A DNA stretch of 64,000 bases from Ktedonobacterales bacterium (GTDB lineage Bacteria > Chloroflexota > Ktedonobacteria > Ktedonobacterales > DATBGS01). The DNA lies in the NCBI GenBank assembly GCA_036557285.1, contig DATBHW010000042.1:59412-123411 (forward strand). The letters are read 5' to 3'. The position numbers and the translations under genes are program-made. This document shows positions 21,601 through 61,943 of this stretch, piece by piece; position 1 is the stretch's first letter; every line of letters begins with the position of its first letter. The notes under the pieces are model-generated. The model ran no database searches and was not told the DNA's origin. It saw only the letters and a program-made list of their open reading frames with translations.

Positions 21601-22223
21601 TAACTGAGCGCGCTGCCCTCCAGCGTCTGCCCCACCAGATCAGCCGTCAACGGGGCTAGGCGATACTCAGCCACCTCAAAGCGGCATGATCCCGCCTCAG
21701 TCCCATCCAGGCTGGCCTCGTATTCGCCTTCTGGCAAGCCAGCAATAGAACGCAGGCAAACGCCATACTCGTCAAGAGCAATGGCATAGCTGGCGTAGTG
21801 ATTGCCGCTCAGCCGAAGGGTCAGCTTCAATTCCTGATTGGGGCGCTGCGGCGAGGCGATCAACAGGCGCACGGCATCTTTGCCCGCCCGATACAGCGCC
21901 TTGTCGCTGGTCAGCGAGATCAGGTCGGGGCAGATAAACGAACTGCCCGCGATTTGCGCGCCCGGCAGCGTCACCTCTTGCTCGCCAAGAAAGACTATCG
22001 CGCCGCCCCGCTTGAACTCATCAATCGTAGCCTGACTAAAACCCAATTGGTCAACGCCGCGCACTGCCTCCTCGATCCAGCCAGGCCGGAAAAAGGCGAA
22101 ACGCTTACCGACCATCACCAGATCGCCTACGCGCTGGGCCAGCCGCCAGCCATCCAGCGTCACACGCTTGTCGCGCAGCCCGGCGGATGGGGGGGTTCCC
22201 TCGTCTGTCGTCTCTGCCATCAT
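18666..22223 (-). CDS. Alpha-2-macroglobulin-family thioester-containing protein with no recognisable signal peptide
   Basis: 1185 aa. MG-domain hallmarks: DKALYRAGKDAVRL, FEVAEYRLAPL and RVEFPEV. Thioester box YPHGCIEQSSVKLL (CIEQ codons at 19929-19940; Cys at about residue 762). The C-terminal receptor-like domain carries CLPDGLARV. The N-terminus MMAETTDEGTPPSAGLRDKR is hydrophilic. Confidence 0.8.
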   Translation of the reverse strand: MMAETTDEGTPPSAGLRDKRVTLDGWRLAQRVGDLVMVGKRFAFFRPGWIEEAVRGVDQLGFSQATIDEFKRGGAIVFLGEQEVTLPGAQIAGSSFICPDLISLTSDKALYRAGKDAVRLLIASPQRPNQELKLTLRLSGNHYASYAIALDEYGVCLRSIAGLPEGEYEASLDGTEAGSCRFEVAEYRLAPLTADLVGQTLEGSALSYTLLLRAFGQPYSGAVEVELQERGQRVGKRQQLMTDARGRCSGKVELTGAGPYTLNVVAGERTATVALKGSEQERRETLTISELGQAQEMSLLPLPGAEVCRGLYVSPRGMNTSPFLVSQVIGEEVELVAREQVDLLRAVMIAPTTGETAQIKTQANIASGARLTLTVPAPYGLLLVGAFVKGKAWEGWCAALRPSGLKLETRAPSKAKPGERVKIILRTNRPDQVVPVQVIIKDQRLITPSDPQVELAARIKAALTTERGRLGIGAPGASLYAAGYEPPLPPAPPMMTFAGMPPAAPAGRGGWGRMGGRAMAMVAAAPQAAPYEVMARAITISPEKSAAEPAQAAKAELTPIRVEFPEVIHNSIVYVKGQAEVAVKLGDALTTYSIEAFGLAGLDWAREEAQLEAQLPVYGDLTLSPFVSPGDQAQGTLYVGAASGRARVEVQRDGEPVPLWVDGRRLAPGEEVKSGAVVRFPAQPGAFTAIVKDAVTGEADVSERFVTPPGQIRSIVKRTRLLTAGETLTRAEAGAQSLRVLPGLERPFQVFVQGACAYPHGCIEQSSVKLLAMVAGYVANLDTPELRDEYESSSLAYVKRIQSMYLPGRGYTMYPPNEGGGRGPDHHYAPGGTRHQLNLPRPEHLSGISQAMAEALNEIRRMASDAAKVYKITYPPERVNDCHDAYLLLASSPSAAKKAQAAEYVRSRLSEQDGQTVVRVPRDQPSYLLHGAAVGSREETAYAAAALLAGGEPRDLPLVIKATNYLTSQTNEAGILYSTVDTGAMLALMIGLREAGIGVTGGSADALELNGKQMTLAEAIESTERVESVACLKGVLTVEVTAELVEDWNTFQSALNVEVSLEKDGRPAPVFKVGDALDLVIRVPRYEPCLVAHVCLPDGLARVVGGGQVKRFALDFAEKTELRVPLAAIGPTLLPGEMADGNGHAAPGSARAKDVPAQHWAVLVRNMFKEEQAGNPGPLEVRITP

Positions 22224-50229: not shown

Positions 50230-50587
50230 GTTGCGCTTGTTCCTCACTTTACCAAAAATTGCCTGTCTTTTTTCCTTGACAGAAGGCATTGTAGTCCATG
50301 ACTTCGGGTGATCGCTAGCAGTTCATTCTACTGCAAGAACTGACACTATTGCCAGCGTTTCTTGCGGTTGCCCGTAAATGGGCGCAATCTGGCCGCCAAA
50401 TTACCCCCTTGTGCTTGCTCAGTAGCTCTGCTAAGATTTTGCCCGAAGCAGACGCGCAAGCCTCGGACGGACCTGGGGGGCAGCGCGCGGTCAGGGCGTG
50501 GAAAAGGATCACGCGCCGCCTTGAGCGCGGCACGCTTCGCCTCTATTGAACATACTGTTGCCTGCAACGCAGGAAAGGAATGCGGCA

Positions 50588-52279
50588 ATGGCCAGCAAAA
50601 ATCCAGAGAAGGATGCACAGGAAAGCACAGCGGATACCAAGATAGAGGTAGCCGTGCTGGCGGATAACAGCGGAGCGGAGGGGCAGGCCGAAGTGGTCGT
50701 GGATGAGGCTGGGGAGCATGCGGAGCAGCTAGAAATAGATCGTCCTGAGGCGACGGCAGAGGAGGCAGCGAGCGCAGAGAGCGGTGAGCAGGAAGCGCCC
50801 GATGAAGCTGAAGCCAACGTCCTCGTTGTCAGCGCCGCTGCAAGTGGCGAAGACGAACAATCAGAAACATTAGCGGAACTCGCGGACGAACTGCCCGCCG
50901 ATGCGTCTTCAGACGAAGAATCCCATGCTGAACCCGAAGGCGCTGAAGCGGAACCCAGCGAGGCCGCTGAAGCAACAGAGGAACAGGCTGCCGAAGAGCC
51001 AGCAGCCGAAGAAGCAGCAGCGGTAGCTGAGGCAGAGAGCGCAGCCGCAGAGGCGGAAGCGCCCAGCATGGAAGCTGAAGCCGCCGAAGCGAGCGAAGAA
51101 GCAGCAGCGGCTGAGGAAGCTGCCGAAGCAGTGGCTGAAGTATCTGCTATGGAGGAAGCCCCTGCGGAAGCTGAGGCTGCCGAAGTTGAAGCGGAAGCCC
51201 CTGCGGCAGAAGCCGAAGCGGCTGAAGCAGCCGAGGAGGCGCCTGCGGCTGAGGAGGCTGAAGCCGTTGCGGCGGCTGAAGAAACTCCTGCGGCTGAGGA
51301 GGCCGAAGCTCCTGTCTCCGAAACCGAAGCGGCTGCCGAGGCTGCAACACTGGAGGAAGCGGCTGAAGTCTTTGAGGAGGCCATCGCAGAAATCAGGGAA
51401 GCGATAGAGGCAGCCGAGGAGGCACACGCCGAGGCCGAAGCGGAAGCCGCCCCGGAAGCAGCGGCTGAGATGGAAGCCGAGTCTGCCGAAGCAGCGGCTG
51501 AAGTCGAGGAGGCAGCCGAGGCTGTAGCCGAAACTGAGGAAGAAGCCGAAGCAGTAGCCGAGGTCGAAGCTGAGGAAGAAGCCGAAGAGGTAGCCGAGGT
51601 AACTGCTGAAGCCGAAGCCATCGCTGAAGAAACAGCAGTGGTAGCTGAGGCCGAAGCCGTCGCCGAGGCCGCTCAAGAGGCAATAGAGGAGGCCGAGGTC
51701 CAGACCGAAGCCGCCCAAGAAGCAGAGGCCGAAGCTGAGGTTCCTTCAGCAGAGGCAGAGGAAGCAGAGGCAGTGGCCGAAGCGCCCGCAGCGGAAGAAG
51801 CCGCCGCTGAAGCCGAACCTGCCGCTGAGGCAGAGGAAGCGCCAGCAGAAGAGCCTGCCCCCGCAGCAGCGAGCGCAGAGGCCGCGCGAGAACCCGTCAC
51901 GATTGTTGCCCATCAATTGATCGCCGTCGGGCCGAACCGCGAACCCCGTATTCTGCTGCACCGTTATCACGGGCGAACCGGTCAGCCCCTGGGTGGAGCG
52001 CCTATGCTCTGGGATACCGCCCGCGCCGCTCGCTTCTTCCATCAAAAAGCGGTCAGCGGCCAGGCAAGCGGGCATGAAACGCTCGTGCATATCCCTGAAG
52101 AGCAAACTGTCGTCATCATGGCTGGTGATGGCGACATCATCAGCGTCCATGAAGAGGTTGCCAGAGCCATCTTCCCAGCCATCGCGCAGCATCGCGCGTC
52201 CTGGGCAGAAGAGCAATGGGACATCCCAGCCGAATATCACCAGGCATCCCCCGCCCTCTCATTCGATGATTGGGCATAA
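50588..52279 (+). CDS. Polyanionic Glu/Ala-rich low-complexity protein with a globular C-terminal domain of about 130 aa
   Basis: ATG at 50588 after GGAAAGGAA. Roughly 430 residues are almost only E, A, plus some V/P/T/S (..AEAEAAEVEAEAPAAEAEAAEAAEEAPAAEE..). After the first ~50 residues I see only one basic residue (R in EIREAI). The C-terminal part begins EPVTIVAHQLIAVGPNREPRILLHRYHGRTG... Confidence 0.7.
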   Translation: MASKNPEKDAQESTADTKIEVAVLADNSGAEGQAEVVVDEAGEHAEQLEIDRPEATAEEAASAESGEQEAPDEAEANVLVVSAAASGEDEQSETLAELADELPADASSDEESHAEPEGAEAEPSEAAEATEEQAAEEPAAEEAAAVAEAESAAAEAEAPSMEAEAAEASEEAAAAEEAAEAVAEVSAMEEAPAEAEAAEVEAEAPAAEAEAAEAAEEAPAAEEAEAVAAAEETPAAEEAEAPVSETEAAAEAATLEEAAEVFEEAIAEIREAIEAAEEAHAEAEAEAAPEAAAEMEAESAEAAAEVEEAAEAVAETEEEAEAVAEVEAEEEAEEVAEVTAEAEAIAEETAVVAEAEAVAEAAQEAIEEAEVQTEAAQEAEAEAEVPSAEAEEAEAVAEAPAAEEAAAEAEPAAEAEEAPAEEPAPAAASAEAAREPVTIVAHQLIAVGPNREPRILLHRYHGRTGQPLGGAPMLWDTARAARFFHQKAVSGQASGHETLVHIPEEQTVVIMAGDGDIISVHEEVARAIFPAIAQHRASWAEEQWDIPAEYHQASPALSFDDWA

Positions 52280-52743: not shown

Positions 52744-52762
52744 CACATTACAAGAAAGAAAC

Positions 52763-53147
52763 GGCTGTGATGGGGACGGGTTCGGAGGCTACACAGCGTT
52801 CAGAGAGCGATGTCCTGGCTGAGAACAGCGCCGCTGCTCCTCTCGAATGACCCCCCTGAGCCAACCAGTGAACTGGCTTAGAGCGCCTCACACAACCTCC
52901 ACACGAGCAGGGGCGGGGTTGTAGCGCCGTCCTGCCAGGCGGCAGGGGTGGGGCCAACCGCCGGTTTTGTGAGGCATTCTTAGCTGCGCCATAGTAACTG
53001 GCTTCGGCAGCGCCCGTTATCGCGCGATGGTTTCTTGCTTCCCCTTGAACAGAAGCATCAACCGCTGAGGCCCCACGTTGGGGCAAATGGTGGTGGTACC
53101 ACGATACGGCTGTACGCCCTCGTCCTCCAAACGGACGAGGGCTTTTT
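52763..53147 (+). promoter_or_regulatory. T-box riboswitch leader of aspS, interrupted by a MITE
   Basis: Stem I spans 52763-52862. It has a K-turn (GGC-UGU-GA-UGGGG ... CCCC-U-GA-GCC), an AG bulge AGAGAG at 52802-52807, a distal loop CCUGGCUGAGA and specifier-loop sequence GAAUGACC. The T-box sequence AAAUGGUGGUGGUACCACG is at 53085-53103. The terminator GCCCUCGUCC/GGACGAGGGC plus U5 is at 53116-53147. Confidence 0.7.
52877..52983. repeat. 107-bp MITE-like element, copy 3 (inside the T-box leader)
   Basis: CTTAGAGCGCCTCACACAACC...GGTTTTGTGAGGCATTCTTAG. It starts 15 nt after Stem I. Confidence 0.85.
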
Positions 53148-53289: not shown

Positions 53290-54597
53290 ATGCAGCGTAT
53301 TCGCACAACTGAGGCTCGCGCACACCAGGGCGAGCGCGTTTCTGTCGCTGGCTGGCTCCATTCACTCCGACGCCTGGGAGCCGTGAACTTTCTCGTCATT
53401 CGTGACGGCTGGGGGACCATCCAGGCCGTCGCAGAGAGCGAAGCTGAATTAGCGCCGCTCCTGGCAGAAGAGGCAGGCGTAGAAACTGTTCTGGCAATCG
53501 AAGGGCTGGTTGTCAGCAATGCGCAGGCTCCTGGCGGCTGTGAATTGCACGAATTGTCCATCAAGCTGATCGCGCCGGTCACTGAAGCGCCTCCGGTAAC
53601 GATCAGCAAGCGCGCCGTCAAGGCCAGCCAGAGTACCATCCTCGACCATGCCGTCGTCACAAACCGCCATCCAGAGCGGCGCGCCATCCTTCAACTCGGC
53701 GCAGGCGTCCTGGCTGGCTTCCGGGCTGCCCTGGGAGAGCAAGGCTTTACCGAGATACAAACGCCCAAGATCGTTGCCTCCGCCACCGAAAGCGGCGCAA
53801 ACGTCTTTTGCCTCGACTATTTTGGGCGGCCAGCCTATCTGGCACAAAGTCCGCAGTTTTACAAGCAGATCATGGTGGGCGTCTTCGAGCGCGTCTTCGA
53901 GGTTGGCCCAGTCTTTCGCGCAGAGCCACATGATACCGCGCGCCATATCAACGAATATGTGAGCCTGGATGTGGAGTTTGGCTTTATCGAAAGCCATCAT
54001 ACCGTGATGGCGCTTTTACGCGACCTGCTGGCGAGCATCTTTACAACATTGGCACAGCGCCATGCTGACGAGCTAGCCCTACTGGAGACGAAGCTGCCCG
54101 CTGTGCCTGTCGAGATTCCCAGCATTCACTTCAGCGACGCCCAGGAACTCATCTACCAGCGTCATGGCGCCGACGTGCGTGGCGAACCCGACCTTTCGCC
54201 CCAGGACGAGCGCCGACTTGGCGAATGGGCGCGTGAACAATTCGGCAGCGATTTCCTGTATGTGATCGGCTACCCGATGCGCAAACGCCCATTCTATACA
54301 CATCCAGACCCATCGCGTCCAGAATATTCCAACTCATTCGACTTGATCTTCCGGGGCATGGAACTGGCTACAGGTGGGCAGCGCCTGCATCGCTACGCCG
54401 ATTACATTGCGGCGCTGGAGGCAGCGCATTTGCCCATCGAACCATTCGAGGCGTATATCGAAGCGTTCCGTTACGGCATGCCGCCACATGGAGGGTTTGC
54501 CTTCGGCCTGGAGCGTTTGTTGATGCAGCTTACTGGCGTCTCAAACATCAAGCTGGCTGCACTCTTCCCCCGCGACCTTGCGCGGCTTACACCCTAA
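53290..54597 (+). CDS. aspS: Aspartate--tRNA ligase, type 2 (archaeal/eukaryotic-like; possibly non-discriminating)
   Basis: 435 aa. OB-fold N-terminus VSVAGWLHSLRRLGAVNFLVIRD. Motif 2: VGPVFRAEPHDTARHINEY. Motif 3: GGFAFGLERL. GGGAGGG RBS. Confidence 0.9.
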   Translation: MQRIRTTEARAHQGERVSVAGWLHSLRRLGAVNFLVIRDGWGTIQAVAESEAELAPLLAEEAGVETVLAIEGLVVSNAQAPGGCELHELSIKLIAPVTEAPPVTISKRAVKASQSTILDHAVVTNRHPERRAILQLGAGVLAGFRAALGEQGFTEIQTPKIVASATESGANVFCLDYFGRPAYLAQSPQFYKQIMVGVFERVFEVGPVFRAEPHDTARHINEYVSLDVEFGFIESHHTVMALLRDLLASIFTTLAQRHADELALLETKLPAVPVEIPSIHFSDAQELIYQRHGADVRGEPDLSPQDERRLGEWAREQFGSDFLYVIGYPMRKRPFYTHPDPSRPEYSNSFDLIFRGMELATGGQRLHRYADYIAALEAAHLPIEPFEAYIEAFRYGMPPHGGFAFGLERLLMQLTGVSNIKLAALFPRDLARLTP

Positions 54598-54691: not shown

Positions 54692-55129
54692 ATGAAACCC
54701 TCAAGGCAAGGAACAGACAGCCGCGCGAAAAAGGGGCTGCTCTGGTTGTGGACACTGGCCGCCGGATTGGTAGGCGTGGGCGTCGGGCTGCTGGTGTTGA
54801 TCTTCGAGCATGCCCCCATGAACGACACCCCTGCAACCCCCCAGGAAATCTTTGTCTTTATGCAAGCCGCGCTCTTGCTGGGCTTTGGGGCGGGCCTGGT
54901 CTCACCCTCCGCCTGGGTCGGCAAGCGCGGCTCAGCCGCCCTGGCTGGATTGCTAGGCAGCGCGGCGCTCTTCCTGATCGTCGCTGTACAGGTGGTAGAC
55001 GCTGGCAATGGCACTGCGCTTTTCTTTGGCTGCTTCACTCTGCCCTTCCTGCTGGTCAGTGTCCTGGGCGGAATCTTCGGCTCCTGGATTGGCGCGCTGC
55101 TGGCCGATATGCGCAGAGGCGAAGGATAA
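54692..55129 (+). CDS. Small integral membrane protein (about 4 TM segments)
   Basis: Four hydrophobic segments (LLWLWTLAAGLVGVGVGLLVLIF, FVFMQAALLLGFGAGLV, ALAGLLGSAALFLIVAV, FFGCFTLPFLLVSVLGGIFGSWIGALL). Confidence 0.6.
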   Translation: MKPSRQGTDSRAKKGLLWLWTLAAGLVGVGVGLLVLIFEHAPMNDTPATPQEIFVFMQAALLLGFGAGLVSPSAWVGKRGSAALAGLLGSAALFLIVAVQVVDAGNGTALFFGCFTLPFLLVSVLGGIFGSWIGALLADMRRGEG

Positions 55130-55252
55130 CGAAGAGTGAAGGCTTCCAGGGCGCCGTCCAGACAATCTCTTGACCTCCTGTGTATCAATATGATAGGCTC
55201 TGTCCTGTAATCAAGCGGCTATGCTTGCACCCCACAGCAGAAAAGAAGGCAT

Positions 55253-55963
55253 ATGTTGATGCTCAAAGGTCTCGATCAAGACGATCTGGCCCACTGGAAC
55301 CCTGTCCAGCTTGCCCAGCGGTGCGCTGTCGAGCAGCAGCACTATCACCAGCATGTTCCTTCTGATGATCGCTACTGCCTTGAGCTATTTCTACGCGCCA
55401 TCCACCAGCGCGATGAGCTTGCCTGGAAACTGATTGCCGATCAATTCAGCGGGACAGTGCTGGGCTGGCTGCGTCAGCATCCCTGCGCCAGCCGGCTCCG
55501 AAATCAAGAAGAACCAGATGCCTACGTGAGCGCCGCCTTCAGCAAGTTCTGGCTGGCAACTGCCTCTCCTGGGGCCACCACCCCTGACTTTCGGACACTG
55601 GCAAGCGTCCTCGCCTATCTGCGTAGTTGTCTCAACAGCGTCGTGCTGGACGAAATGCGGCAACTCAAGACCCGCTCGCGCGAAGGGCCGCTGGAGGATA
55701 TGAGCGACACAGCAGTAGATGAACCTTTGCGCCAGTCGGTTCAGGAACTCTGGACCGTCATCGAGCGCGCCCTGCCAGACCGGCGGGAACAGCGTCTGGT
55801 CTATCTCCTCTTTGTGCTTGACCTCAAACCGCGCGACGTGGTACGAATAGCTCCACAAGATTTTCCTACCGCGCAAGAGGTATACCGGCTGACGCGCAAC
55901 GTCCTTGATCGCTTGCGCCGTAATCCCGCCCTGCGCGCCTGGGTGGAGGCTGATGATCTATAA
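55253..55963 (+). CDS. Sigma-70-family (ECF-like) sigma factor with an N-terminal extension
   Basis: Region-2-like: CLELFLRAIHQRDELAWKLIADQFSGTVLGWL..AFSKFWLA..AYLRSCLNSVVLDEMR. Region-4-like HTH: LPDRREQRLVYLLFVLDLKPRDVVRIAP..AQEVYRLTRNVLDRLRRN. Confidence 0.75.
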   Translation: MLMLKGLDQDDLAHWNPVQLAQRCAVEQQHYHQHVPSDDRYCLELFLRAIHQRDELAWKLIADQFSGTVLGWLRQHPCASRLRNQEEPDAYVSAAFSKFWLATASPGATTPDFRTLASVLAYLRSCLNSVVLDEMRQLKTRSREGPLEDMSDTAVDEPLRQSVQELWTVIERALPDRREQRLVYLLFVLDLKPRDVVRIAPQDFPTAQEVYRLTRNVLDRLRRNPALRAWVEADDL

Positions 55964-56173
55964 TATTCAGAAACCAGATGCAAAAAGAACGGGAGTGGCT
56001 CGTTCTTCTCAATACTGAGAGAGCGCGATACCTGGGCGCGTTTAGCCACCGCGCCGCTAGTGCGCTTTCTACCAGGAAGGATACGCGCCTCCGTCGGCAC
56101 CACGGCAGCCATAGGTAGCGATTCTACGAGGGGTTGTATCTTCCTCATATTTTGAGAAAAGGAGTACCCGACA

Positions 56174-56956
56174 ATGGATGGTCCTAGCCCCCATATACTC
56201 AATGAGGATGATCTGGTCGCTGCTGCCTTAGACTCCGATGCTTTGACTGCTGAGGCCAGGCAGCATCTTGCCCAATGCCCGACCTGTGCCAAACAGGCTG
56301 CGTCATATCAACGATTCATGTCTGCGCTCACCTCCAAACTCTATCGTTGGGACTGCCCCACTACCCAGGAGATCAGCGACTACGCTGCGGGACGACTACG
56401 CGGCAAGCGCCGCCACACGCTCGCCCTGCATTTCAAACGCTGCCCACACTGCACCGAGGAACTGGAGATCAGTCGGCAATTCCTGAGTCCAGCCCCACAG
56501 GCAGCAGCTGCACCAGGCTTGCGATCCCCAGCAGCCAATCTTCAACCACTTCCCCCACGCCAACGCCTCGTAGCGCGGCTGCTGCCGCACCGCACGGCAG
56601 GCGCGGCGCTGGCAGGCATCCGTGGAAGCAGCAGCCAGGGCAACGAAGGCTGGCCTCGCCAATATCAATTCGATACGATCTCCCTCTCCCTGCATCGCGC
56701 TGTTCCGCCAGCAGGTGGAAGTGGCTCCATGCTGCTTGGCCTGATTTCACGCGCCGAGGCCCCGCCCGATGCGTTCAGCAACATAGAGATACATCTGCTC
56801 CTTTCAGATGCTCCAGATAAGCCGCCCCTTGCCACTGAACAGATTGACGATCTTGGCAACTTTGTCCTCAGCCCTGTCCCCACTGGCCGTTTCGACCTGC
56901 TTATTGTGCTGCCAGAGGGTGATCTGGTCATCGAAGGGCTTGAACTCAGTGGATGA
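56174..56956 (+). CDS. Soluble zinc-finger anti-sigma-like protein
   Basis: AAAGGAG RBS. Two H/C..CxxC units (HLAQCPTCAKQ and HFKRCPHCTEE). An Ala/Pro/Gln-rich linker and a C-terminal beta-sandwich-like segment (GNFVLSPVPTGRFDLLIVLPEGDLVIEG) follow. No TM segment. Confidence 0.65.
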   Translation: MDGPSPHILNEDDLVAAALDSDALTAEARQHLAQCPTCAKQAASYQRFMSALTSKLYRWDCPTTQEISDYAAGRLRGKRRHTLALHFKRCPHCTEELEISRQFLSPAPQAAAAPGLRSPAANLQPLPPRQRLVARLLPHRTAGAALAGIRGSSSQGNEGWPRQYQFDTISLSLHRAVPPAGGSGSMLLGLISRAEAPPDAFSNIEIHLLLSDAPDKPPLATEQIDDLGNFVLSPVPTGRFDLLIVLPEGDLVIEGLELSG

Positions 56957-56963
56957 ACCGTCA

Positions 56964-59900
56964 ATGAACGCTCACACATTTGTCTCTGGCCTGTTACCCT
57001 TGCAAGGGGAGGCCATCACACGCTATTTCGCAGAGCATGCTCCCGCAGCAGATGACCTGGACACCATCGCCCAACTCCTCAAAGACGAAGCCCAGGCCCA
57101 GGAGACCCGCGACCTGGAACAGTCGCTCATCATTGCCGATCAGCTATTGGCATTCGCTGATTGGACAGGCAGCCCTCGCCATCGTGCGCTGGGCCTGCTG
57201 GAGCGCGGCAACGTCCTCATGCTCCAGGGCCACCACCGCGAAGCCATCGACTGCTTCGATACCGCCGGAGCCGATTTCCTCAAGGCAGGCGATGAAATTG
57301 GCTGGGCGCGCACCAGAATAAGCTACCTTTTCTGCGCCTCGCGCATTGGCCTGGCTGAGCAAGCCCTTCAACATGTTGAGCGGGCACGCGAGGTTTTTCT
57401 CTCCCATGATGAGTATGGACGCGCCGCCGATCTGGAGACGAATCTGGCAATTGCCTTGTCAGGCGTTGGGCGTTACCAGGAAGCCCTGGCAGCCTATGAC
57501 CGAATTCTGCTGATCATTAGTTCCAGGGAAACGGGCGATATGCTGAGCCGCAAAGCACGGGTGCTCACAAACAAAGCATTTGTTTTAGAGATGCAGGGCG
57601 ATTTACACGGCGCTATCACCTGTCTTCAGGAAGCTCGCGCCATCTTTGCTGCACAGCAACAGCTCCGCGCAGGTGCCGCCGCTGATCTTAATCAGGCTTG
57701 GTTACGGGCGAGTCTGGGCCAATATAGCGCAGCCTTACATCTCTACCATCAGGCAAGGGAATATTATCAGCAGCATGCTATTCCCAACGCCCTCGCTGCT
57801 GTGAATGCCGATATGGCCCATTGCCTTTTGCGCCTGAATCGCCCAGTCGAAGCACTCAAACTGGCCGAAGAAGCGGTTGCCCTCTGTCAGACGTTGGATG
57901 AAACCTCGGAACTCGGCACCATGCTTGTCTATCTCGCACGAGCGCAGGCAGCTTGCAACAAACCTGAAGCAGCACTGCTGACACTGAAAGAAGCTCGTCG
58001 GCAGTTTGAAAGTGTTGGCAATCTTCCTTCAGCCGGGTTAGCAATACTCACGGTAGCTGAGCTTTTGATTCAGTCAAGAGACCAGCTAGCCCAGGCCCTC
58101 GAAAGTGCTAAAGAAGCGATGAGCATCTTCTATGCTCATCACATGGAACATTTAATTGCTGAAGCTCATCTGCTCCAGGGGCGGGCCTACGAACTATCAG
58201 ATAATGTCGTTCTGGCAGCAGAGCTAGGCAATAAAGCCCTGAAGGAAGCCCGGCAGGCTCACATTCCCTGGCTGGAATTTGGCTGTGAACTCCTGCTTGG
58301 CCGATTAATGCAGCGGCAAGGGAACCTGGAGGCAGCAGAGCAACACTATCAGGCCGCGCTCACCTTACTTGAAGGCTTGATGACCTGGCTCGTGCGCGAC
58401 CAGCGCAGCACGTTCTTGACCGACAAAGAAGATGTTTTTAGCGCCCTGATCAGCCTCTCGCTGAAGCGCAGCAACCCCAACAGGGCGCTGGAGTATCTGG
58501 AACGCATGAAATCCCAAGTGCTGCGCGAATATCTGACGCGCTCCTCTGAGATTCGGCTCAAAGCAAGCGATCCCGAAGAAGCGCGCCTCTTGCAAGAACT
58601 GCAACGGCTGCGCCAGGAACTGCATGTCTCTAGCGCCCAAGTAGTTCTAACGGAAAAGACTGTCCAAAGCTCCACACTTGCCGAGCAAGCAGCAGCAGCC
58701 AGAGGAGCGCCAACCGATGTCATTGAGACAGAAAAAGCCCAACAAAACACCCTCCTGAATCAGCAGAAGGCCGAGCAGCGCCGCCGCGAGCAGGCCATCA
58801 GCGAATTATTAGAGCGGGCTTATCTCCAACACGAGAGTTCCCGCTTTACCCTCTTTGCCACTGGGCAAGGAGGGCATCAGGCCCATAGCCCACTTTCAAT
58901 TGAACACCTGTCTGACCTGATGCCAGAAGGCAGCGTCCTGCTGGAATACTTCACTCAAGGCGATGATCTGCTCATCTTTACCCTTCATGCCCGGCATCGC
59001 CGCACTGAAATAACGCATGTTCCTGGCGCGGCCAATCGGATCAGCCGGATGCTCCCGCTTTTTCGTACCAATGTTGATCTGGTCGCTCAGCATCTCATGA
59101 GCCAGCCCGCCGGGGCAAACATTGATCCCATGCTCACCGTCAATATCCAGGGCCTTGCCCGCAGACTCTATGATCTCCTGCTGAAACCCATTGAAATCCA
59201 TATACCAACCGATGGACGGCTCATCATCGTGCCTTATGGCCTGCTCCATCTGCTGCCCTTTCATGCGCTGCACAGCGAGGTGGGCTACCTGATCGAGCGG
59301 TGCGAAGTGGCCTATCTGCCCGCTGCTGCCATGCTCGCGCTCCAGGAGAGCCAGCGCGCAGCACTACCGCGCACCAGCGATGGGCAGGGGAACATTCTGG
59401 TGCTGGGGCACTCTCATGGCGGGCTGCTGCCCCACGCGCTGCACGAGGCACACAGCGTCGCACATTTATTGGGAGCAAGCCCTTTCCTCGACGAGCAGGC
59501 AACTATTGAGCGATTGAGCGGCGCAGCCGGGAGCTACAACATCATCCACATTGCTGCGCATGGGCAGAATCGCGCCGACGCGCCCGACTTCTCCTATCTG
59601 CAACTGGCCGATGGGCAACTAAGTATGATTGATGTCTTCAACCTGGATTTACCCGCTGAGCTTATTACCTTGAGCGGCTGCGAAACCGGGCTGGTTGTCA
59701 TCGGTGGCGGCGATGAACTTCTGGGATTGGGGCGCGGCTTTCTTTACGCCGGAGCGCGCTCGCTTCTGATGAGCCTCTGGCGCGTGGAAGATGCCAGCAC
59801 CGCTCTATTGATGGAACGCTTTTATCAAGGGCTTCTGGCCGGGCAGTCACGGGCAGGCGCGCTGCGTGGCGCCCAGCAGGCGCTTCTGGCAGACGCTCGT

Positions 59901-59987
59901 GCTGGCAAAAGCCCGGCTGCCTGGCAGCATCCGTATTTCTGGGCGCCCTTCCGCCTGCTCGGCGCCTCCGACCCCGTCGCACTCTAA
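56964..59987 (+). CDS. TPR-repeat + CHAT-domain (caspase-like) protease
   Basis: ATG at 56964, 8 nt after the upstream stop. About 650 aa of TPR-like helical repeats and a coiled-coil segment are followed by a CHAT domain. The His-Cys dyad sits in IIHIAAHG (His codon 59559-59561) and LSGCETG (Cys codon 59679-59681). Confidence 0.85.
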   Translation: MNAHTFVSGLLPLQGEAITRYFAEHAPAADDLDTIAQLLKDEAQAQETRDLEQSLIIADQLLAFADWTGSPRHRALGLLERGNVLMLQGHHREAIDCFDTAGADFLKAGDEIGWARTRISYLFCASRIGLAEQALQHVERAREVFLSHDEYGRAADLETNLAIALSGVGRYQEALAAYDRILLIISSRETGDMLSRKARVLTNKAFVLEMQGDLHGAITCLQEARAIFAAQQQLRAGAAADLNQAWLRASLGQYSAALHLYHQAREYYQQHAIPNALAAVNADMAHCLLRLNRPVEALKLAEEAVALCQTLDETSELGTMLVYLARAQAACNKPEAALLTLKEARRQFESVGNLPSAGLAILTVAELLIQSRDQLAQALESAKEAMSIFYAHHMEHLIAEAHLLQGRAYELSDNVVLAAELGNKALKEARQAHIPWLEFGCELLLGRLMQRQGNLEAAEQHYQAALTLLEGLMTWLVRDQRSTFLTDKEDVFSALISLSLKRSNPNRALEYLERMKSQVLREYLTRSSEIRLKASDPEEARLLQELQRLRQELHVSSAQVVLTEKTVQSSTLAEQAAAARGAPTDVIETEKAQQNTLLNQQKAEQRRREQAISELLERAYLQHESSRFTLFATGQGGHQAHSPLSIEHLSDLMPEGSVLLEYFTQGDDLLIFTLHARHRRTEITHVPGAANRISRMLPLFRTNVDLVAQHLMSQPAGANIDPMLTVNIQGLARRLYDLLLKPIEIHIPTDGRLIIVPYGLLHLLPFHALHSEVGYLIERCEVAYLPAAAMLALQESQRAALPRTSDGQGNILVLGHSHGGLLPHALHEAHSVAHLLGASPFLDEQATIERLSGAAGSYNIIHIAAHGQNRADAPDFSYLQLADGQLSMIDVFNLDLPAELITLSGCETGLVVIGGGDELLGLGRGFLYAGARSLLMSLWRVEDASTALLMERFYQGLLAGQSRAGALRGAQQALLADARAGKSPAAWQHPYFWAPFRLLGASDPVAL

Positions 59988-60107
59988 GCAGCGCCTTCAT
60001 CTGCAAATAGCTGTTTACAAATCGTTTTCTTTGATAGGTGGCTTACAGAGACCGACACCCCGGCGCTATGTGAATGCAACCAGGTTCCTTGTATCAGGAG
60101 GACTTTT

Positions 60108-61943
60108 ATGGTGAATCGCCCCAGACCGCCAGCGCATCCAGCTTTTAAAGGCGCTCTCCCAGCCCTCGATGGGCGCATCATTGAGCCGCTCTATTGGATT
60201 CCGAACGAACTGGCCGTGACGGTTCGTTCTCCAATGGCGCCAACGCTGGAGCAGCTACAAACCCTCAGCGCCCGCCTGAAACGGCTGCTCAGCGAAGTCG
60301 GCATCAGCGTTGTTCCTTTTTACGCTGGCGGCCAGCGACTCTCACGCCAGGGCGCAAAGCGTGATCTCTCAGAGCCGGAAGAAACAGTTACCGAGCAAAA
60401 GTATGTTCAGGTGGGGATAGAGGTTGGACGGATTGGACGGACCTCTGCTCAAACCCTGGTGGAAGTTGAGCTTGAGGAGCAGTGGCAGGCTGAGTACAGG
60501 CGTCGTCCCAACCGACTTCCCGGCGTTCATTCCTTTGGCAATGGCCCAACAGGCATTGCTGTCGTCTTTTATACCCTGCTCACTCATCGCCAGCGCCGAG
60601 GAGACCAGAGGGACAGCGTACAGATAGCGGTTGATCACATCAACCAGAACCTGCACCTGCGCAACCCTGGAGAAAATGCGCTGCGCGTCCTGGCCGCCAT
60701 GCCGAACTGGCTGACATATGGCTCAGGGCAAATTCCAGAGCCAGCCACTGGACCAGGCGCGCCACCGATGTGGTCCCCAGACGCGCCCCCTCCCAGCGGC
60801 TCCTGGGTTTTTAAGCAGCCGCACTTTGCCGCTCTGGTTCAGCAAAACAAGCAGCAGCCAGCGGGACACGTTACCGTCATCATTCTGGATACCGCGCTCG
60901 GAGATAACAACGCGGTCATCACACGCGCCCAGCAGGTTCCAGATTACGCAAACAATCTGTTGCTGAAGCAGATTGTGGGCGATCTCAATCAAGGCAAGAT
61001 GCTTATTGATACGAGCATTCCCACTTATATGCTGCCTGGCAACCAGTTCGGCGCGGGCCAGGATGACCTGGGGCGGCCTTTCGTCTATAATATGGTTGAT
61101 CATGGCCTCTTCATCGCGGGCATCATTTACAGCATCGCCCCACAAGCGGAGATAAAACTGGTGCGCACCCAGAATCCCTATGGCGCGGGAGATATGAACG
61201 TTTTCTTGCATGCTCTCGACGAAGTGGGCCAGCGCCAGGACACACAACAGATCGTGTTGAATCTCAGCATGGGCGCGCTGCCACCCCTGGAGGAACTCCA
61301 TCAAATCTGGTTTGGCTCTGGCTGCTGCTGCGATGCGCCGCCTTTTGCTGATGCTTTGCAAACCCTCGAAAAATTGCATCTGGGGCTGCGTATTGCCATT
61401 CGCTCACTGGTGGAAAAAGGGGTCGTGATCGTTGCCGCCGCTGGCAACGACTCGATAGGTAAGAATCCGCCACATGGGCCACGCTATCCGGCTCGCTATG
61501 AGGACGTGCTGGGGGTTGCAGCTGTGAACCGCCACGAACAAGCCGCCGCATATTCCAACCAGGCCAATGTAGACCATTGGGGCAGCGGCATTGCCACCTT
61601 TGGCGGCGAAGAGCCGAACGACGACAGCGATACGCTCGCCTGGTATCTGGGTACATCGCCGAATCAACCTGGCCCACCCGATGCCGTCCATAGCCTCTAT
61701 CTGAATCCAACCTATCCGCCGCTCAATGCAGATGATTCTGGCGCTGGCGGCTCAAACAACTCTGGCTGGGCCTGGTGGTCGGGGACATCGTTTGCCACCG
61801 CCGTCGCCAGTGGGCTGGCAGCGCATCATGTGCTGGCTGGCATGCACGGGCAGCAGGTCATCCAGGCCATCTTAAATGGTCTGGCTTCCGCTCCCTACTC
61901 CCAACGGCTACAGGCTCCTATTCTGGAAGTAGCGGAAGAATAG
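60108..61943 (+). CDS. S8-family subtilisin-like serine peptidase with an unknown N-terminal domain of about 250 aa and no signal peptide
   Basis: AGGAGG RBS. Triad: VIILDTALGD (Asp codon 60887-60889), DHGLFIAGII (His codon 61101-61103), GTSFATAVASG (Ser codon 61788-61790). Oxyanion NLSMGA. Confidence 0.85.
   Translation: MVNRPRPPAHPAFKGALPALDGRIIEPLYWIPNELAVTVRSPMAPTLEQLQTLSARLKRLLSEVGISVVPFYAGGQRLSRQGAKRDLSEPEETVTEQKYVQVGIEVGRIGRTSAQTLVEVELEEQWQAEYRRRPNRLPGVHSFGNGPTGIAVVFYTLLTHRQRRGDQRDSVQIAVDHINQNLHLRNPGENALRVLAAMPNWLTYGSGQIPEPATGPGAPPMWSPDAPPPSGSWVFKQPHFAALVQQNKQQPAGHVTVIILDTALGDNNAVITRAQQVPDYANNLLLKQIVGDLNQGKMLIDTSIPTYMLPGNQFGAGQDDLGRPFVYNMVDHGLFIAGIIYSIAPQAEIKLVRTQNPYGAGDMNVFLHALDEVGQRQDTQQIVLNLSMGALPPLEELHQIWFGSGCCCDAPPFADALQTLEKLHLGLRIAIRSLVEKGVVIVAAAGNDSIGKNPPHGPRYPARYEDVLGVAAVNRHEQAAAYSNQANVDHWGSGIATFGGEEPNDDSDTLAWYLGTSPNQPGPPDAVHSLYLNPTYPPLNADDSGAGGSNNSGWAWWSGTSFATAVASGLAAHHVLAGMHGQQVIQAILNGLASAPYSQRLQAPILEVAEE

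What the first reader, a model, noticed from the sequence alone, without database searches (positions are those of the whole stretch)
55253..61943. Sigma factor + soluble zinc-finger anti-sigma-like protein + TPR-CHAT protease + leaderless S8 subtilase: a CRISPR-free, Craspase-style protease-gated transcription module?
Seen in sequence: four co-directional genes with short gaps (211, 8 and 121 nt). They encode an ECF-like sigma factor, a cytoplasmic protein with two CxxC zinc-finger units, a 1007-aa TPR-CHAT protein with an intact His/Cys dyad, and a 611-aa S8 protease with an intact Asp/His/Ser triad and no export signal. Established knowledge: in type III-E CRISPR loci the TPR-CHAT protease Csx29 (Craspase) cleaves Csx30, which sequesters an RpoE-type sigma factor. 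Zinc-finger (zf-HC2) proteins are the classic ECF anti-sigma module. Inference: the same parts (TPR-CHAT, a sigma factor and a sigma-binding partner) occur here without gRAMP/Cas7-11, a CRISPR array or csx30/31. A second, cytoplasmic protease is present that could act as an amplifier or effector. I propose a ligand- or peptide-sensing (TPR) protease switch. It would release the sigma factor by cleaving the zinc-finger protein, possibly as a stress, abortive-infection or developmental circuit. I do not know of a described system with exactly this four-gene architecture.
Basis: partly seen in the sequence, partly recalled or inferred. Interest (0 to 1): 0.85.

Follow-up and report, generated by a model that had tools for sequence, protein, structure and literature searches.

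The report
Sigma/anti-sigma cassette with two proteases
A soil Chloroflexota bacterium carries a conserved four-gene cassette (a cryptic sigma factor, its zinc-binding anti-sigma partner, a caspase-like TPR-CHAT protease and a subtilisin-like protease) that probably switches transcription on by proteolysis. The same gene neighbourhood was already noted in Actinobacteria (group ECF54), but nobody has tested how it works.

Summary
Four co-directional genes at 55253-61943 encode a sigma-like protein, a soluble zinc-finger protein, a 1007-aa TPR-CHAT protease and a 611-aa S8 protease. The CHAT His/Cys dyad and the S8 Asp/His/Ser triad are intact. None of the four has a membrane or export segment. 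The window holds no CRISPR array and no Cas-sized gene with a Cas-like match.

Pfam and NCBIfam do not recognise the sigma-like protein. Profile searches, signature residues and an AlphaFold model all point to an ECF-type sigma2+sigma4 protein.

The zinc-finger protein is a zinc-binding anti-sigma domain (invariant C61/H86/C90/C93, plus a second HxxxCxxC). A disordered linker follows, then a carboxypeptidase-regulatory-like beta-sandwich.

All four genes are present in 9 of 13 distinct Chloroflexota loci, with changing flanks and two gene arrangements.

It is not unprecedented. The ECF classification describes the same neighbourhood for actinobacterial group ECF54 (CarboxypepD_reg at +1, subtilase, TPR-CHAT), described there as lacking an anti-sigma. 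DdvA fuses a zinc anti-sigma domain to TPR-CHAT.

New here: the phylum, the cryptic sigma family, the +1 protein identified as an anti-sigma, an invariant Arg in its linker, and a conserved ECF-like promoter motif before ZF-CHAT and S8.

The Craspase-like cleavage mechanism is plausible but untested.

The parts
55170..55199 (+). Candidate housekeeping-type promoter of the sigma gene: TTGACC (55170-55175), an 18-nt spacer, then TG-extended TAGGCT (55191-55199)
   Evidence: The block is conserved upstream of the sigma gene in L001, L003, L006 and L007, and in similar form in L009, L011, L014 and L015. It is below the threshold of the consensus scan. This is an inference from conservation only.
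55253..55963 (+). Cryptic ECF-like sigma factor (236 aa; the start may be 55259)
   Evidence: No Pfam or NCBIfam hit. The family profile hits only sigma factors in the PDB: FliA, R. sphaeroides SigE and SigF, at E 0.02-0.2. The AF2 model has pLDDT 86 and two helical domains joined by a disordered linker at 146-160. The listed Foldseek PDB hits are almost all sigma factors or RNA-polymerase complexes, including AlgU, RpoE, SigL and BldN, with probabilities up to 0.99 but E >= 0.03 and TM-scores of 0.2-0.4. hhalign against a canonical ECF gives E 1e-4, colinear over regions 2 and 4. A family member has a sub-threshold Sigma70_r2 match at 3e-4.
55981..56005 (+). Candidate sigma-dependent (ECF-type) promoter P(ZF-CHAT): CAAAAAGAACGGGAGTGGCTCGTTC, about 170 nt upstream of the ZF start
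   Evidence: The bipartite motif C[AG]AA[AT]-N14-17-CGTT[CT] is found in 7 of 7 sigma-ZF intergenic regions. These include L010 and L016, which were examined after the motif was defined; the per-region shuffle probability is 0.0025-0.012. A hairpin is possible in the window copy but is not conserved elsewhere (sequence inspection, output).
56174..56956 (+). Soluble anti-sigma factor (260 aa). It has an N-terminal helical region with two HxxxCxxC zinc motifs, a disordered linker of roughly residues 105-160 with invariant R150 (codon 56621-56623), and a C-terminal carboxypeptidase-regulatory-like beta-sandwich
   Evidence: zf-HC2 matches 27 of 27 homologues, best E 3e-12, and CarboxypepD_reg matches 8 of 27, best 2.5e-5. 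C61, H86, C90, C93 and R150 are invariant in 29 sequences; H31, C35 and C38 are present in 28 of 29. The AF2 model (pLDDT 82) has helices at 11-104, pLDDT below 50 at 109-124 and 141-153, and a beta-sandwich at 162-258. The profile's best PDB hits are the zinc anti-sigma domains RslA, DdvA N-terminus and ChrR. The RsrA model of NCBIfam scores 1.6e-7, below its cutoff. The gene is adjacent to the sigma gene in 13 of 13 loci.
56964..59987 (+). Soluble TPR-CHAT caspase-like protease (1007 aa); catalytic H866 (59559-59561) and C906 (59679-59681)
   Evidence: CHAT 1.7e-63 and TPR_12/TPR_1/TPR_2. H866-G867 and S904/C906/T908/G909 are invariant in 9 loci. The best solved-sequence relatives are Csx29 chains, with the His and Cys aligned. 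The NCBIfam Csx29 model gives 66.8 bits against a cutoff of 300, so this is domain-level similarity only.
60004..60027 (+). Second copy of the candidate sigma-dependent promoter, P(S8): CAAATAGCTGTTTACAAATCGTTT, about 80 nt upstream of the S8 start
   Evidence: The same bipartite motif occurs at the same relative place, 17-20 nt after the CHAT stop codon, in L001 and L003, with a near match in L007. The rest of this gap does not align.
60108..61943 (+). S8 subtilase zymogen without export signal (611 aa). An N-terminal region of about 190 aa looks like a propeptide, followed by the catalytic domain with D261, H332, N447 and S561
   Evidence: Peptidase_S8 7.4e-15. The triad and the oxyanion Asn are invariant in 18 homologues; the conserved PNWL...GGPG..PP...W block lies where mature subtilases begin. 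H332 and N447 align with subtilisin BPN'. The propeptide reading is an inference from sequence pattern only.

Best explanation
This is a self-contained cytoplasmic sigma/anti-sigma signalling cassette of the 'ECF54-type' neighbourhood, found here in a Ktedonobacterales (Chloroflexota) genome.

What the parts are (shown):
- Gene 1 is a highly divergent ECF-like sigma factor.
- Gene 2 is its anti-sigma. It has a zinc-binding anti-sigma domain (CHCC ligands C61/H86/C90/C93, preceded by a second HxxxCxxC unit), a disordered linker, and a carboxypeptidase-regulatory-like beta-sandwich.
- Genes 3 and 4 are catalytically intact proteases that travel with the pair.

How it most likely works (inferred):
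1. The sigma gene is transcribed from a housekeeping-type promoter, and the sigma is held inactive by the anti-sigma.
2. A signal read by the TPR array activates the CHAT protease.
3. CHAT cuts the anti-sigma in its exposed linker. The invariant Arg150 in the motif A-G-(L/I)-R-G is the best candidate site.
4. The anti-sigma is destabilised and the sigma is released.
5. The free sigma transcribes from C(A/G)AAA-N15-CGTT(C/T) promoters that precede ZF-CHAT and S8.
6. This re-supplies the anti-sigma (negative feedback), raises CHAT (positive feedback), and induces the S8 zymogen. S8 acts either as a second-stage protease that finishes off the anti-sigma fragment or as the output protease.

Shown: gene content, domain identities, catalytic residues, solubility, conserved linkage, conserved DNA motifs. 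Inferred: sigma-anti-sigma binding, who cleaves whom, the cleavage site, promoter function, and the signal.
For: Domain identities.

Catalytic residues are invariant.

Conserved linkage:
- The sigma and ZF genes are adjacent in all 13 distinct loci seen.
- TPR-CHAT is next to them in 12.
- S8 is present in all 9 loci whose contig reaches that far.
- This holds down to 22-35% ZF identity and 27% sigma identity, with unrelated flanks.
- Two arrangements occur: co-directional in Ktedonobacteria-type loci, and sigma-ZF divergent from CHAT-S8 in L009, L014 (Roseiflexaceae) and L015.
-.

R150 is invariant in 29 sequences although it lies in a linker with pLDDT below 50.

The promoter-like motif is conserved before ZF and before S8.

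Precedents in the literature:
- DdvA fuses a CHCC zinc anti-sigma domain to TPR-CHAT and is proposed to self-cleave.
- Csx29 cleaves Csx30, which controls an RpoE-type sigma (PMC10028731, listed; the Craspase mechanism itself is from my own knowledge).
- ECF54 is listed under 'proteolysis' in a review and described in the ECF classification supplement.
Against: - No interaction or cleavage was tested, and no multimer model could be run.
- The promoter motif before ZF-CHAT and S8 equally fits a model in which the proteases are the regulon rather than the trigger.
- In the compact operons L011 and L012 the internal motifs are absent. In the Roseiflexaceae-type loci the motif is not evident.
- One locus (L010) has the sigma-ZF pair without adjacent proteases.
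- The S8 of L011 carries a lipoprotein-type signal. This argues against a universal cytoplasmic role of S8 on the anti-sigma.
- Soluble zinc anti-sigma factors such as RsrA are classically redox switches that need no protease.
- Known CHAT specificities vary (after Leu or Met in Craspase, after Arg in separase), so Arg150 is only a guess.
Confidence: 0.45

Rival explanations
1. The proteases are the output, not the gate. The zinc anti-sigma domain senses thiol oxidation or metal loss, as RsrA and ChrR do. It releases the sigma, and the sigma then induces the TPR-CHAT and S8 proteases (and its own anti-sigma) for protein turnover, developmental remodelling or cell death.
For: - The ECF-like promoter motif lies directly upstream of ZF-CHAT and of S8, while the sigma gene itself has a housekeeping-type promoter.
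- The best NCBIfam match of the ZF protein is RsrA.
- The protein is soluble with fully conserved Cys/His ligands.
- The S8 in L011 appears to be exported, which suits an effector.
- The ECF classification itself leaves open 'regulation or response'.
Against: - This does not explain why a TPR sensor array is always attached to the CHAT.
- It does not explain why the anti-sigma keeps a long disordered linker with an invariant Arg and an extra beta-sandwich.
- In L014 and L015 the CHAT gene sits behind its own housekeeping-like promoter and not the motif.
- The DdvA fusion of a zinc anti-sigma domain with TPR-CHAT argues for a direct functional coupling.
- The two models are not mutually exclusive.
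Confidence: 0.3
2. This is an anti-phage or abortive-infection switch. The TPR-CHAT would recognise a phage protein and trigger sigma release and/or a toxic protease cascade in which CHAT activates the S8 zymogen.
For: - Analogy with Craspase, DdvA-DdvS and the SAVED-CHAT-to-PCaspase cascade.
- One member of the sigma family is fused to TIR and TPR domains (P0232).
- L010 lies next to JetD/SMC-like and NB-ARC genes, and L012 next to a phage-sheath-like gene.
Against: - PADLOC gives no defence-system match for any of the four proteins.
- The window and L003/L004 keep the module in the same housekeeping context of tRNA synthetase, molybdopterin oxidoreductase and an acidic protein. That looks like vertical inheritance, not a variable defence island.
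- No other defence genes were found near the module in the window.
Confidence: 0.12
3. The 'sigma' is not a transcription factor at all. It could be a sigma mimic or decoy like the PhyR sigma-like domain, or an unrelated helical protein, and the cluster would be a proteolytic maturation system with no transcriptional role.
For: - No Pfam or NCBIfam model recognises the protein.
- NCBI names one related Ktedonobacteraceae cluster 'hypothetical protein', and JGI names most homologues the same way.
- Foldseek E-values are weak: none reaches 0.001.
Against: - Every weak sequence hit is a sigma factor, and the listed structural hits are almost all sigma factors or RNA-polymerase complexes.
- The alignment to a canonical ECF is colinear over regions 2 and 4.
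- Signature positions of region 2 (D54, A57, W58, F99, W100, D133, R136) and region 4 are invariant or nearly so.
- The protein is always paired with a zinc anti-sigma domain protein.
- A conserved bipartite promoter-like motif sits inside the cluster.
Confidence: 0.07

Closest known systems
ECF54 gene neighbourhood of Actinobacteria (Huang et al. 2015, not held; Casas-Pastor et al. 2021 supplement; review PMC8999054)
   Same: An ECF-type sigma is followed at +1 by a carboxypeptidase-regulatory-like domain protein, with a subtilase and a TPR-CHAT protein within +/-3 genes. Both co-directional (+2/+3) and divergent (-1/-2) layouts occur. Regulation by proteolysis has been proposed for it but never tested.
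   Different: - ECF54 is reported as 100% Actinobacteria; this module is in Chloroflexota.
- The sigma here is not recognised by Pfam or NCBIfam sigma models.
- The ECF54 promoter GTATCAG-Xn-CTCC is absent. A different motif, CRAAA-N15-CGTTY, is conserved instead.
- ECF54 is described as lacking an anti-sigma, whereas here the +1 protein clearly carries zinc anti-sigma motifs.
- Sequence relatedness to ECF54 could not be tested, because no ECF54 sequence was available.
DdvA-DdvS of Myxococcus xanthus (PMC11506125; PMC6061681)
   Same: An ECF sigma is bound by a CHCC-type zinc anti-sigma domain that is functionally tied to a TPR-CHAT module with a His/Cys dyad. CHAT-mediated cleavage of the anti-sigma is the proposed trigger. 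The DdvA N-terminus is among the top PDB matches of the ZF profile.
   Different: - DdvA is a single transmembrane polypeptide with a periplasmic TPR-CHAT. It is followed by RseP intramembrane proteolysis and controls a CBASS/CRISPR island.
- Here the anti-sigma and the TPR-CHAT are separate soluble proteins.
- Here a subtilase is added, and there is no defence island.
Type III-E CRISPR Craspase: Cas7-11/gRAMP-Csx29 with Csx30, Csx31 and RpoE (PMC10028731)
   Same: A TPR-CHAT protease with the same catalytic dyad; Csx29 chains are the closest solved sequences. The logic is a protease that cleaves a sigma-controlling protein.
   Different: - There is no Cas7-11 and no CRISPR array.
- The Csx29 model is missed by a wide margin (66.8 bits against a cutoff of 300).
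- The sigma partner is a classical zinc anti-sigma domain protein, not Csx30.
- Activation cannot be RNA-guided.
Protease-released sigma factors and protease cascades in type III CRISPR signalling: CalpL-CalpT-CalpS (from my own knowledge), and SAVED-CHAT to PCaspase (bioRxiv 10.1101/2023.06.23.546230, listed)
   Same: Soluble proteases cleave an anti-sigma-like protein to free an ECF-like sigma, or one protease activates a second one. This is a precedent for a CHAT-to-S8 cascade.
   Different: - Those systems are triggered by cyclic oligoadenylates through SAVED domains, and none is present here.
- The protease families differ: Lon and caspase there, S8 here.
RsrA-SigR and ChrR-SigE soluble zinc anti-sigma systems
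   Same: A soluble anti-sigma with the HxxxCxxC zinc motif is encoded next to its ECF sigma. RsrA is the best NCBIfam match and ChrR is among the PDB matches.
   Different: - Those systems respond to redox or singlet-oxygen signals without dedicated proteases.
- They have one zinc motif, no CarboxypepD_reg domain, and no linked CHAT or S8 genes.

Membership tests
ECF (group 4) sigma-70 family | Match to the Sigma70_r2 and Sigma70_r4 / ECF profile models | tested here: not met
   No Pfam or NCBIfam hit even at E=10. One family member reaches a sub-threshold Sigma70_r2 match (3e-4, 20.9 bits against a cutoff of 24).
ECF (group 4) sigma-70 family | Two-domain sigma2 + sigma4 architecture without region 3, with conserved region 2 and region 4 signature residues | tested here: met
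   The AF2 model (pLDDT 86) has two helical domains and a disordered linker. The listed Foldseek hits are almost all sigma factors or RNA-polymerase complexes, including ECFs, though E-values are no better than 0.03 and TM-scores are 0.2-0.4. The profile hits only sigma factors in the PDB. hhalign to a canonical ECF is colinear over regions 2 and 4, E 1e-4. Invariant or nearly invariant residues are D54, A57, W58, F99, W100, D133 and R136.
ECF (group 4) sigma-70 family | Binds core RNA polymerase and directs promoter-specific initiation | not testable with these tools
   Only an indirect hint: a conserved bipartite CRAAA-N15-CGTTY motif inside the cluster.
ECF54 group and its neighbourhood | CarboxypepD_reg-domain protein at +1, and subtilase and TPR-CHAT within +/-3 genes | tested here: met
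   CarboxypepD_reg PF13620 is found in 8 of 27 homologues of the +1 protein, with a beta-sandwich model. CHAT is at +2 and S8 at +3. The ECF54 definition was read.
ECF54 group and its neighbourhood | The sigma classified into ECF54 by sequence; Actinobacteria only | tested here: not met
   The organism is Ktedonobacterales / Chloroflexota, whereas ECF54 is reported as 100% Actinobacteria. Sequence classification against the ECF54 model could not be run. The lack of any generic sigma-model hit makes membership unlikely.
ECF54 group and its neighbourhood | Predicted target promoter GTATCAG-Xn-CTCC | tested here: not met
   The motif is absent from the window module and from the intergenic regions of the module in 11 related loci.
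Zinc-binding (ZAS, class I) anti-sigma factors | HxxxCxxC motif with an upstream fourth ligand, and a zf-HC2 profile match | tested here: met
   zf-HC2 scores 27.8 bits against a cutoff of 22.2 and matches 27 of 27 homologues. C61, H86, C90 and C93 are invariant, with the spacing seen in RsrA and ChrR (the spacing comparison is from my own knowledge). A second unit, H31/C35/C38, is present in 28 of 29 sequences.
Zinc-binding (ZAS, class I) anti-sigma factors | Encoded next to, and binding, its cognate sigma | tested here: inconclusive
   Adjacency holds in 13 of 13 loci. Binding was not testable because no multimer prediction was available.
DdvA-type TPR-CHAT anti-sigma | Zinc anti-sigma domain, transmembrane helix and periplasmic TPR-CHAT in one polypeptide | tested here: not met
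   The anti-sigma and TPR-CHAT are separate genes, and neither protein has a hydrophobic segment long enough for a membrane helix.
Type III-E CRISPR Craspase | Cas7-11/gRAMP and a CRISPR array next to csx29, csx30, csx31 and rpoE | tested here: not met
   No array. The ORFs sampled across the window are metabolic, housekeeping or without a Pfam match. The Csx29 NCBIfam model gives 66.8 bits against a cutoff of 300.
CHAT (caspase-like, clan CD) peptidases | CHAT fold profile and the His/Cys catalytic dyad | tested here: met
   PF12770 at 1.7e-63. H866 and C906 are invariant in 9 loci and align to the Csx29 dyad.
Peptidase S8 (subtilases) | Asp/His/Ser triad in subtilisin order plus the oxyanion Asn | tested here: met
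   PF00082 at 7.4e-15. D261, H332, N447 and S561 are invariant in 18 homologues. H332 and N447 align with subtilisin BPN'.

The most novel reading that the evidence does not exclude
A free-standing, CRISPR-independent, fully cytoplasmic TPR-CHAT protease, possibly acting through or with the S8 zymogen as a two-step cascade, cleaves a tandem-zinc-motif anti-sigma at an invariant Arg in its linker. This releases a member of a large sigma family that current profile libraries miss (about 2,400 clusters at 50% identity). On this reading, the 'anti-sigma-less' ECF54 group and this Chloroflexota module are one ancient protease-gated sigma switch, and Craspase and DdvA are specialised derivatives of it.
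Probability: 0.3. Interest if true: 0.8.

Novelty: new variant of a known kind. Interest (0 to 1): 0.58.

Why it matters
Caspase-like CHAT proteases that control sigma factors are so far known only from CRISPR type III-E (Craspase) and from the membrane protein DdvA. In neither case is the natural non-RNA signal understood.

This cassette is a minimal, soluble version made of four proteins, with candidate promoters on the same DNA. It could be rebuilt in E. coli or in vitro to ask three questions: what a TPR-CHAT senses, what it cuts, and how a second protease fits in.

The analysis also suggests that the +1 'carboxypeptidase-regulatory-like' protein of group ECF54 is the missing anti-sigma of that group.

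Finally, it shows that a sizeable sigma-like family escapes Pfam and NCBIfam, and at least some of its members are labelled 'hypothetical protein' in public records. This affects counts of the regulatory capacity of Chloroflexota.

Tried and rejected
- **The search for related loci with the sigma alignment** failed because no stretch was conserved enough.
- **tblastn against plasmids.** The sigma and S8 queries found nothing. The CHAT domain found many cyanobacterial and proteobacterial CHAT proteins. A Nonomuraea locus that I hoped was an ECF54 example turned out to be a different LuxR/AAA-TPR/caspase/CHAT cluster, so I dropped it.
- **Huang et al. 2015** could not be read. The ECF54 description comes from the Casas-Pastor supplement.
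- **The conserved motif as an intrinsic terminator.** The window and L003 copies can form a short hairpin. L001, L006, L007 and all the CHAT-S8 copies cannot, so I rejected this in favour of a promoter reading (sequences).
- **Other motif matches.** Matches in the window at 10274, 44750 and 53824 lie in or against coding regions and were not pursued. The L009 match upstream of S8 is not significant in that AT-rich gap.
- **ECF54 promoter motif** was searched for and is absent.
- **RiPP or peptide-maturation reading of the S8.** The weak PatA/QhpE/mycosin matches cover only the conserved active-site block, and no precursor or modifying genes are nearby.
- **The 1059-aa start of the CHAT ORF** was rejected on homologue lengths.

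Full report

Yes. The + strand carries four ORFs:
- sigma-like, 55253-55963 (236 aa)
- ZF, 56174-56956 (260 aa)
- TPR-CHAT, 56964-59987 (1007 aa; a longer 1059-aa ORF from 56808 is not supported by homologue lengths)
- S8, 60108-61943 (611 aa)

The gaps are 210, 7 and 120 nt.

Pfam finds CHAT (1.7e-63) with several TPR families, Peptidase_S8 (7.4e-15) and zf-HC2 (2.8e-6, above its gathering score).

The CHAT dyad is H866/C906. It is invariant in nine loci and aligns with the catalytic His and Cys of Csx29, the closest solved sequences. The S8 residues D261/H332/N447/S561 are invariant in 18 homologues and align with subtilisin.

None of the four proteins has a hydrophobic segment compatible with a membrane helix or signal peptide.

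The window has no CRISPR array. The ten large or flanking ORFs I sampled elsewhere in it give housekeeping, metabolic or no Pfam matches: glycerol kinase, glycerol-3-phosphate oxidase, GH3, a Ser/Thr kinase and an AlkZ-like glycosylase. PADLOC recognises no defence system.

The organism is a Ktedonobacterales bacterium, phylum Chloroflexota.

**2. The sigma factor is the weak point of the observation, but it holds**

Neither Pfam nor NCBIfam gives any hit, even at E=10. The PDB sequence search with the single protein is also empty.

I aligned 29 homologues (A1). With that profile, the only PDB matches at E<10 are three sigma factors: FliA, R. sphaeroides ECF SigE and SigF.

An AlphaFold model from that alignment (pLDDT 86) shows two helical domains joined by a disordered linker. 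The listed Foldseek PDB hits are almost all sigma factors or RNA-polymerase complexes, including the ECFs AlgU, RpoE, SigL and BldN. Probabilities reach 0.99. E-values are weak (none reaches 0.001) and TM-scores are 0.2-0.4, which is expected for a two-domain protein with a free inter-domain angle.

hhalign against a canonical ECF from a related genome is colinear over regions 2 and 4 (E 1e-4).

Invariant or nearly invariant residues fall on classical signature positions: D54, A57 and W58 in region 2.1/2.2, F99 and W100 in 2.3, and D133 and R136 in 2.4. The mapping of these residues to regions is my own reading.

An exhaustive HMM search finds 2,369 clusters (at 50% identity) at E<=0.001 and 793 at E<=1e-30. 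Of ten sampled members, none reaches the gathering score of a Pfam sigma model, and one has a sub-threshold Sigma70_r2 match. NCBI and JGI label the members of one related Ktedonobacteraceae cluster 'hypothetical protein', and JGI labels most of the homologues the same way.

So this is a real but cryptic ECF-like sigma family.

**3. The zinc-finger protein is an anti-sigma factor with an extra domain**

All 27 homologues scanned match zf-HC2 (best 3e-12), and 8 of 27 match CarboxypepD_reg, PF13620 (best 2.5e-5).

In 29 aligned sequences, C61, H86, C90 and C93 are invariant. This is a CHCC zinc-binding anti-sigma arrangement with the same ligand spacing as RsrA and ChrR (my knowledge). A second HxxxCxxC unit (H31/C35/C38) is present in 28 of 29.

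The profile's best PDB matches are the zinc anti-sigma domains of M. tuberculosis RslA, M. xanthus DdvA and R. sphaeroides ChrR. The best NCBIfam model is RsrA, below its cutoff.

The AlphaFold model (pLDDT 82) has three parts:
- helices at 11-104
- a low-confidence region, with pLDDT below 50 at 109-124 and 141-153
- a beta-sandwich at 162-258, which resembles Ig/FN3/CarboxypepD_reg-type folds

Inside the disordered linker, one residue, R150, is invariant in all 29 sequences, in the context A-G-(L/I)-R-G. I take it as the best candidate protease site. This is inference only.

**4. Conserved linkage**

I examined 13 distinct loci with the sigma-ZF pair. They were reached from sigma, ZF or S8 homologues:
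- the window
- L001/L002
- L003/L004
- L006
- L007
- L009
- L010
- L011
- L012
- L014
- L015
- L016/L017
- a JGI contig of 8,124 nt, listed without DNA

What they show:
- The sigma and ZF genes are adjacent in all 13.
- A 950-1009-aa TPR-CHAT gene is next to them in 12.
- The S8 gene is present in all 9 whose contig extends far enough.
- Flanking genes differ in nearly every case. The exception is L003/L004, which shares the window's context.
- The association persists down to 22-35% ZF identity and 27% sigma identity (hhalign probability 99.8).
- In Ktedonobacteria-type loci the four genes are co-directional. In L009 (Chloroflexi bacterium AL-W), L014 (Roseiflexaceae) and L015, sigma-ZF is transcribed divergently from CHAT-S8.

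Exceptions and outliers:
- L010 has only sigma-ZF.
- A more distant sigma homologue (L005) stands alone.
- An S8 paralogue (L008) stands alone.

That criterion is not met, so the module is real.

**5. DNA signals**

Upstream of the sigma gene is a conserved TTGACC-N18-(TG)nTAGGCT block at 55170-55199. It looks like a housekeeping, extended -10 promoter.

A different bipartite motif, C(A/G)AA(A/T)-N14-17-CGTT(C/T), lies shortly after the sigma stop codon. In the window it is at 55981-56005, about 170 nt before the ZF start. It occurs in all seven sigma-ZF gaps of Ktedonobacteria-type loci. Two of these, L010 and L016, were inspected only after the motif had been defined; the per-region chance there is about 0.003.

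The same motif lies shortly after the CHAT stop codon, in the window at 60004-60027, about 80 nt before the S8 start. It occurs in three of four such gaps, with a near match in the fourth, and the rest of those gaps does not align.

A -10-like CGT(T/C) is typical of ECF promoters (my knowledge). A hairpin or terminator reading fails because the possible stem is not conserved.

I therefore propose that the sigma drives ZF-CHAT and S8, while its own gene is expressed independently. This is an inference. The motif is absent from the compact operons L011 and L012 and is not evident in the Roseiflexaceae-type loci.

**6. What is known**

It is described, as a domain list.

The ECF classification states that ECF54 sigma factors (100% Actinobacteria) have:
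- a carboxypeptidase-regulatory-like domain protein 'always in position +1'
- a subtilase at +2 or -1
- CHAT at +3 or -2
- TPR at +2 or -2
- no recognisable anti-sigma
- a predicted promoter GTATCAG-Xn-CTCC

[quoted passage not shown] A 2022 review files ECF54 under 'regulated by proteolysis'. No member has been studied experimentally, according to those texts.

The module here matches that neighbourhood, including the alternative divergent layout. It differs in four ways:
- It is in another phylum.
- Its sigma escapes the standard sigma models.
- It lacks the ECF54 promoter motif.
- Its +1 protein is demonstrably a zinc anti-sigma domain protein.

The second close relative is DdvA-DdvS of Myxococcus. 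A CHCC zinc anti-sigma domain, a membrane helix and a periplasmic TPR-CHAT are fused in one protein, and CHAT self-cleavage is proposed as the site-1 step. That fusion is a Rosetta-stone argument that zinc anti-sigma domains and TPR-CHAT work together.

Craspase (Csx29-Csx30-RpoE) shares the protease family and the logic. It does not share Cas7-11, the array, Csx30 or the RNA trigger. The Csx29 family model is missed by a wide margin (66.8 bits against 300).

**7. Mechanism**

My preferred model (confidence 0.45) is regulated proteolysis of the soluble anti-sigma. The TPR-CHAT protease cuts in the exposed linker. Sigma-dependent induction of ZF, CHAT and S8 follows. The S8 zymogen acts as a second-stage or output protease.

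The main rival (0.30) keeps the same parts but makes the zinc domain the sensor, by a redox or metal switch as in RsrA, and makes the proteases the regulon. The promoter motifs support this rival, and so does the fact that the S8 of L011 has a lipoprotein-type signal peptide. The two models can coexist through feedback.

A phage-defence role (0.12) has no specific support beyond analogy and a few suggestive neighbours.

The idea that the protein is not a sigma at all (0.07) is contradicted by all the remote-homology evidence.

**8. Verdict**

This is a new variant of a known but uncharacterised kind. It is the Chloroflexota counterpart of the ECF54-type sigma/CarboxypepD_reg/TPR-CHAT/subtilase neighbourhood.

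It adds three concrete, testable points:
- the +1 protein is the anti-sigma
- an invariant linker Arg
- candidate sigma-dependent promoters in front of the protease genes

Interest is moderate to high (0.58). It offers a compact soluble system for studying how a TPR-CHAT protease gates a sigma factor outside CRISPR. The idea itself is not unprecedented, and nothing mechanistic is shown.

Noticed in passing
window 52758-53130 (+): A T-box leader match (RF00230, 56.3 bits, E 3e-10, below the gathering score of 93, full-length model) lies directly upstream of the class II aspartyl/asparaginyl-type tRNA synthetase gene at 53290-54597. It is probably a divergent T-box riboswitch of Chloroflexota.
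   Followed up: no
window 50546-52279 (+): A 577-aa protein with an extremely acidic Ala/Glu-rich repetitive region (tandem repeats of 18-45 nt) and no Pfam match. A 692-aa counterpart without a Pfam match occupies the same position in L003/L004.
   Followed up: no
proteins P0232, P0229, P0227, P0224, P0330, P0234: The cryptic sigma family (2,369 clusters at 50% identity) includes fusion proteins:
- TIR + TPR + sigma-like (P0232)
- an N-terminal HxxxCxxC zinc-motif region fused to the sigma-like part (P0229; weak match to the first ZF motif, hhalign E 1.6e-3)
- sigma-like proteins with beta-rich C-terminal extensions of 70-240 aa

   Followed up: partly
L011 11651-13339: In this compact four-gene operon, on a 4.5-Mb metagenomic contig, the S8 protease starts with a lipoprotein-type signal (…WLALLLIGALLAAC…, hydropathy 2.18). 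It is the only one of the 36 proteins checked across the nine complete modules that looks exported.
   Followed up: partly
L016 4221-4537: The ZF-CHAT gap of this locus is filled with four or five copies of a palindromic unit of about 35 nt (…GGATCGATAAATCGCGGA…), flanked by a long inverted repeat. It looks like a small repeat or mobile element inserted between the two genes.
   Followed up: no
window 54692-55129 (+): A 145-aa hydrophobic protein (hydropathy 2.38, no Pfam match) lies immediately upstream of the module. It is conserved at that position only in the syntenic loci L003/L004, so it is probably not part of the cassette.
   Followed up: partly
window 18666-22223 (-): The largest ORF of the window (1185 aa) has no Pfam match at E<=1e-5. 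I did not examine it further.
   Followed up: no
L013 (Nonomuraea gerenzanensis, NZ_LT559118.1 7207732-7226412): This is a different CHAT-containing cluster: a caspase-domain protein, an AAA-TPR-LuxR regulator, a small LuxR-type protein and an 1149-aa CHAT protein in a row. The 11.85-Mb record is filed among plasmids but is chromosome-sized.
   Followed up: partly
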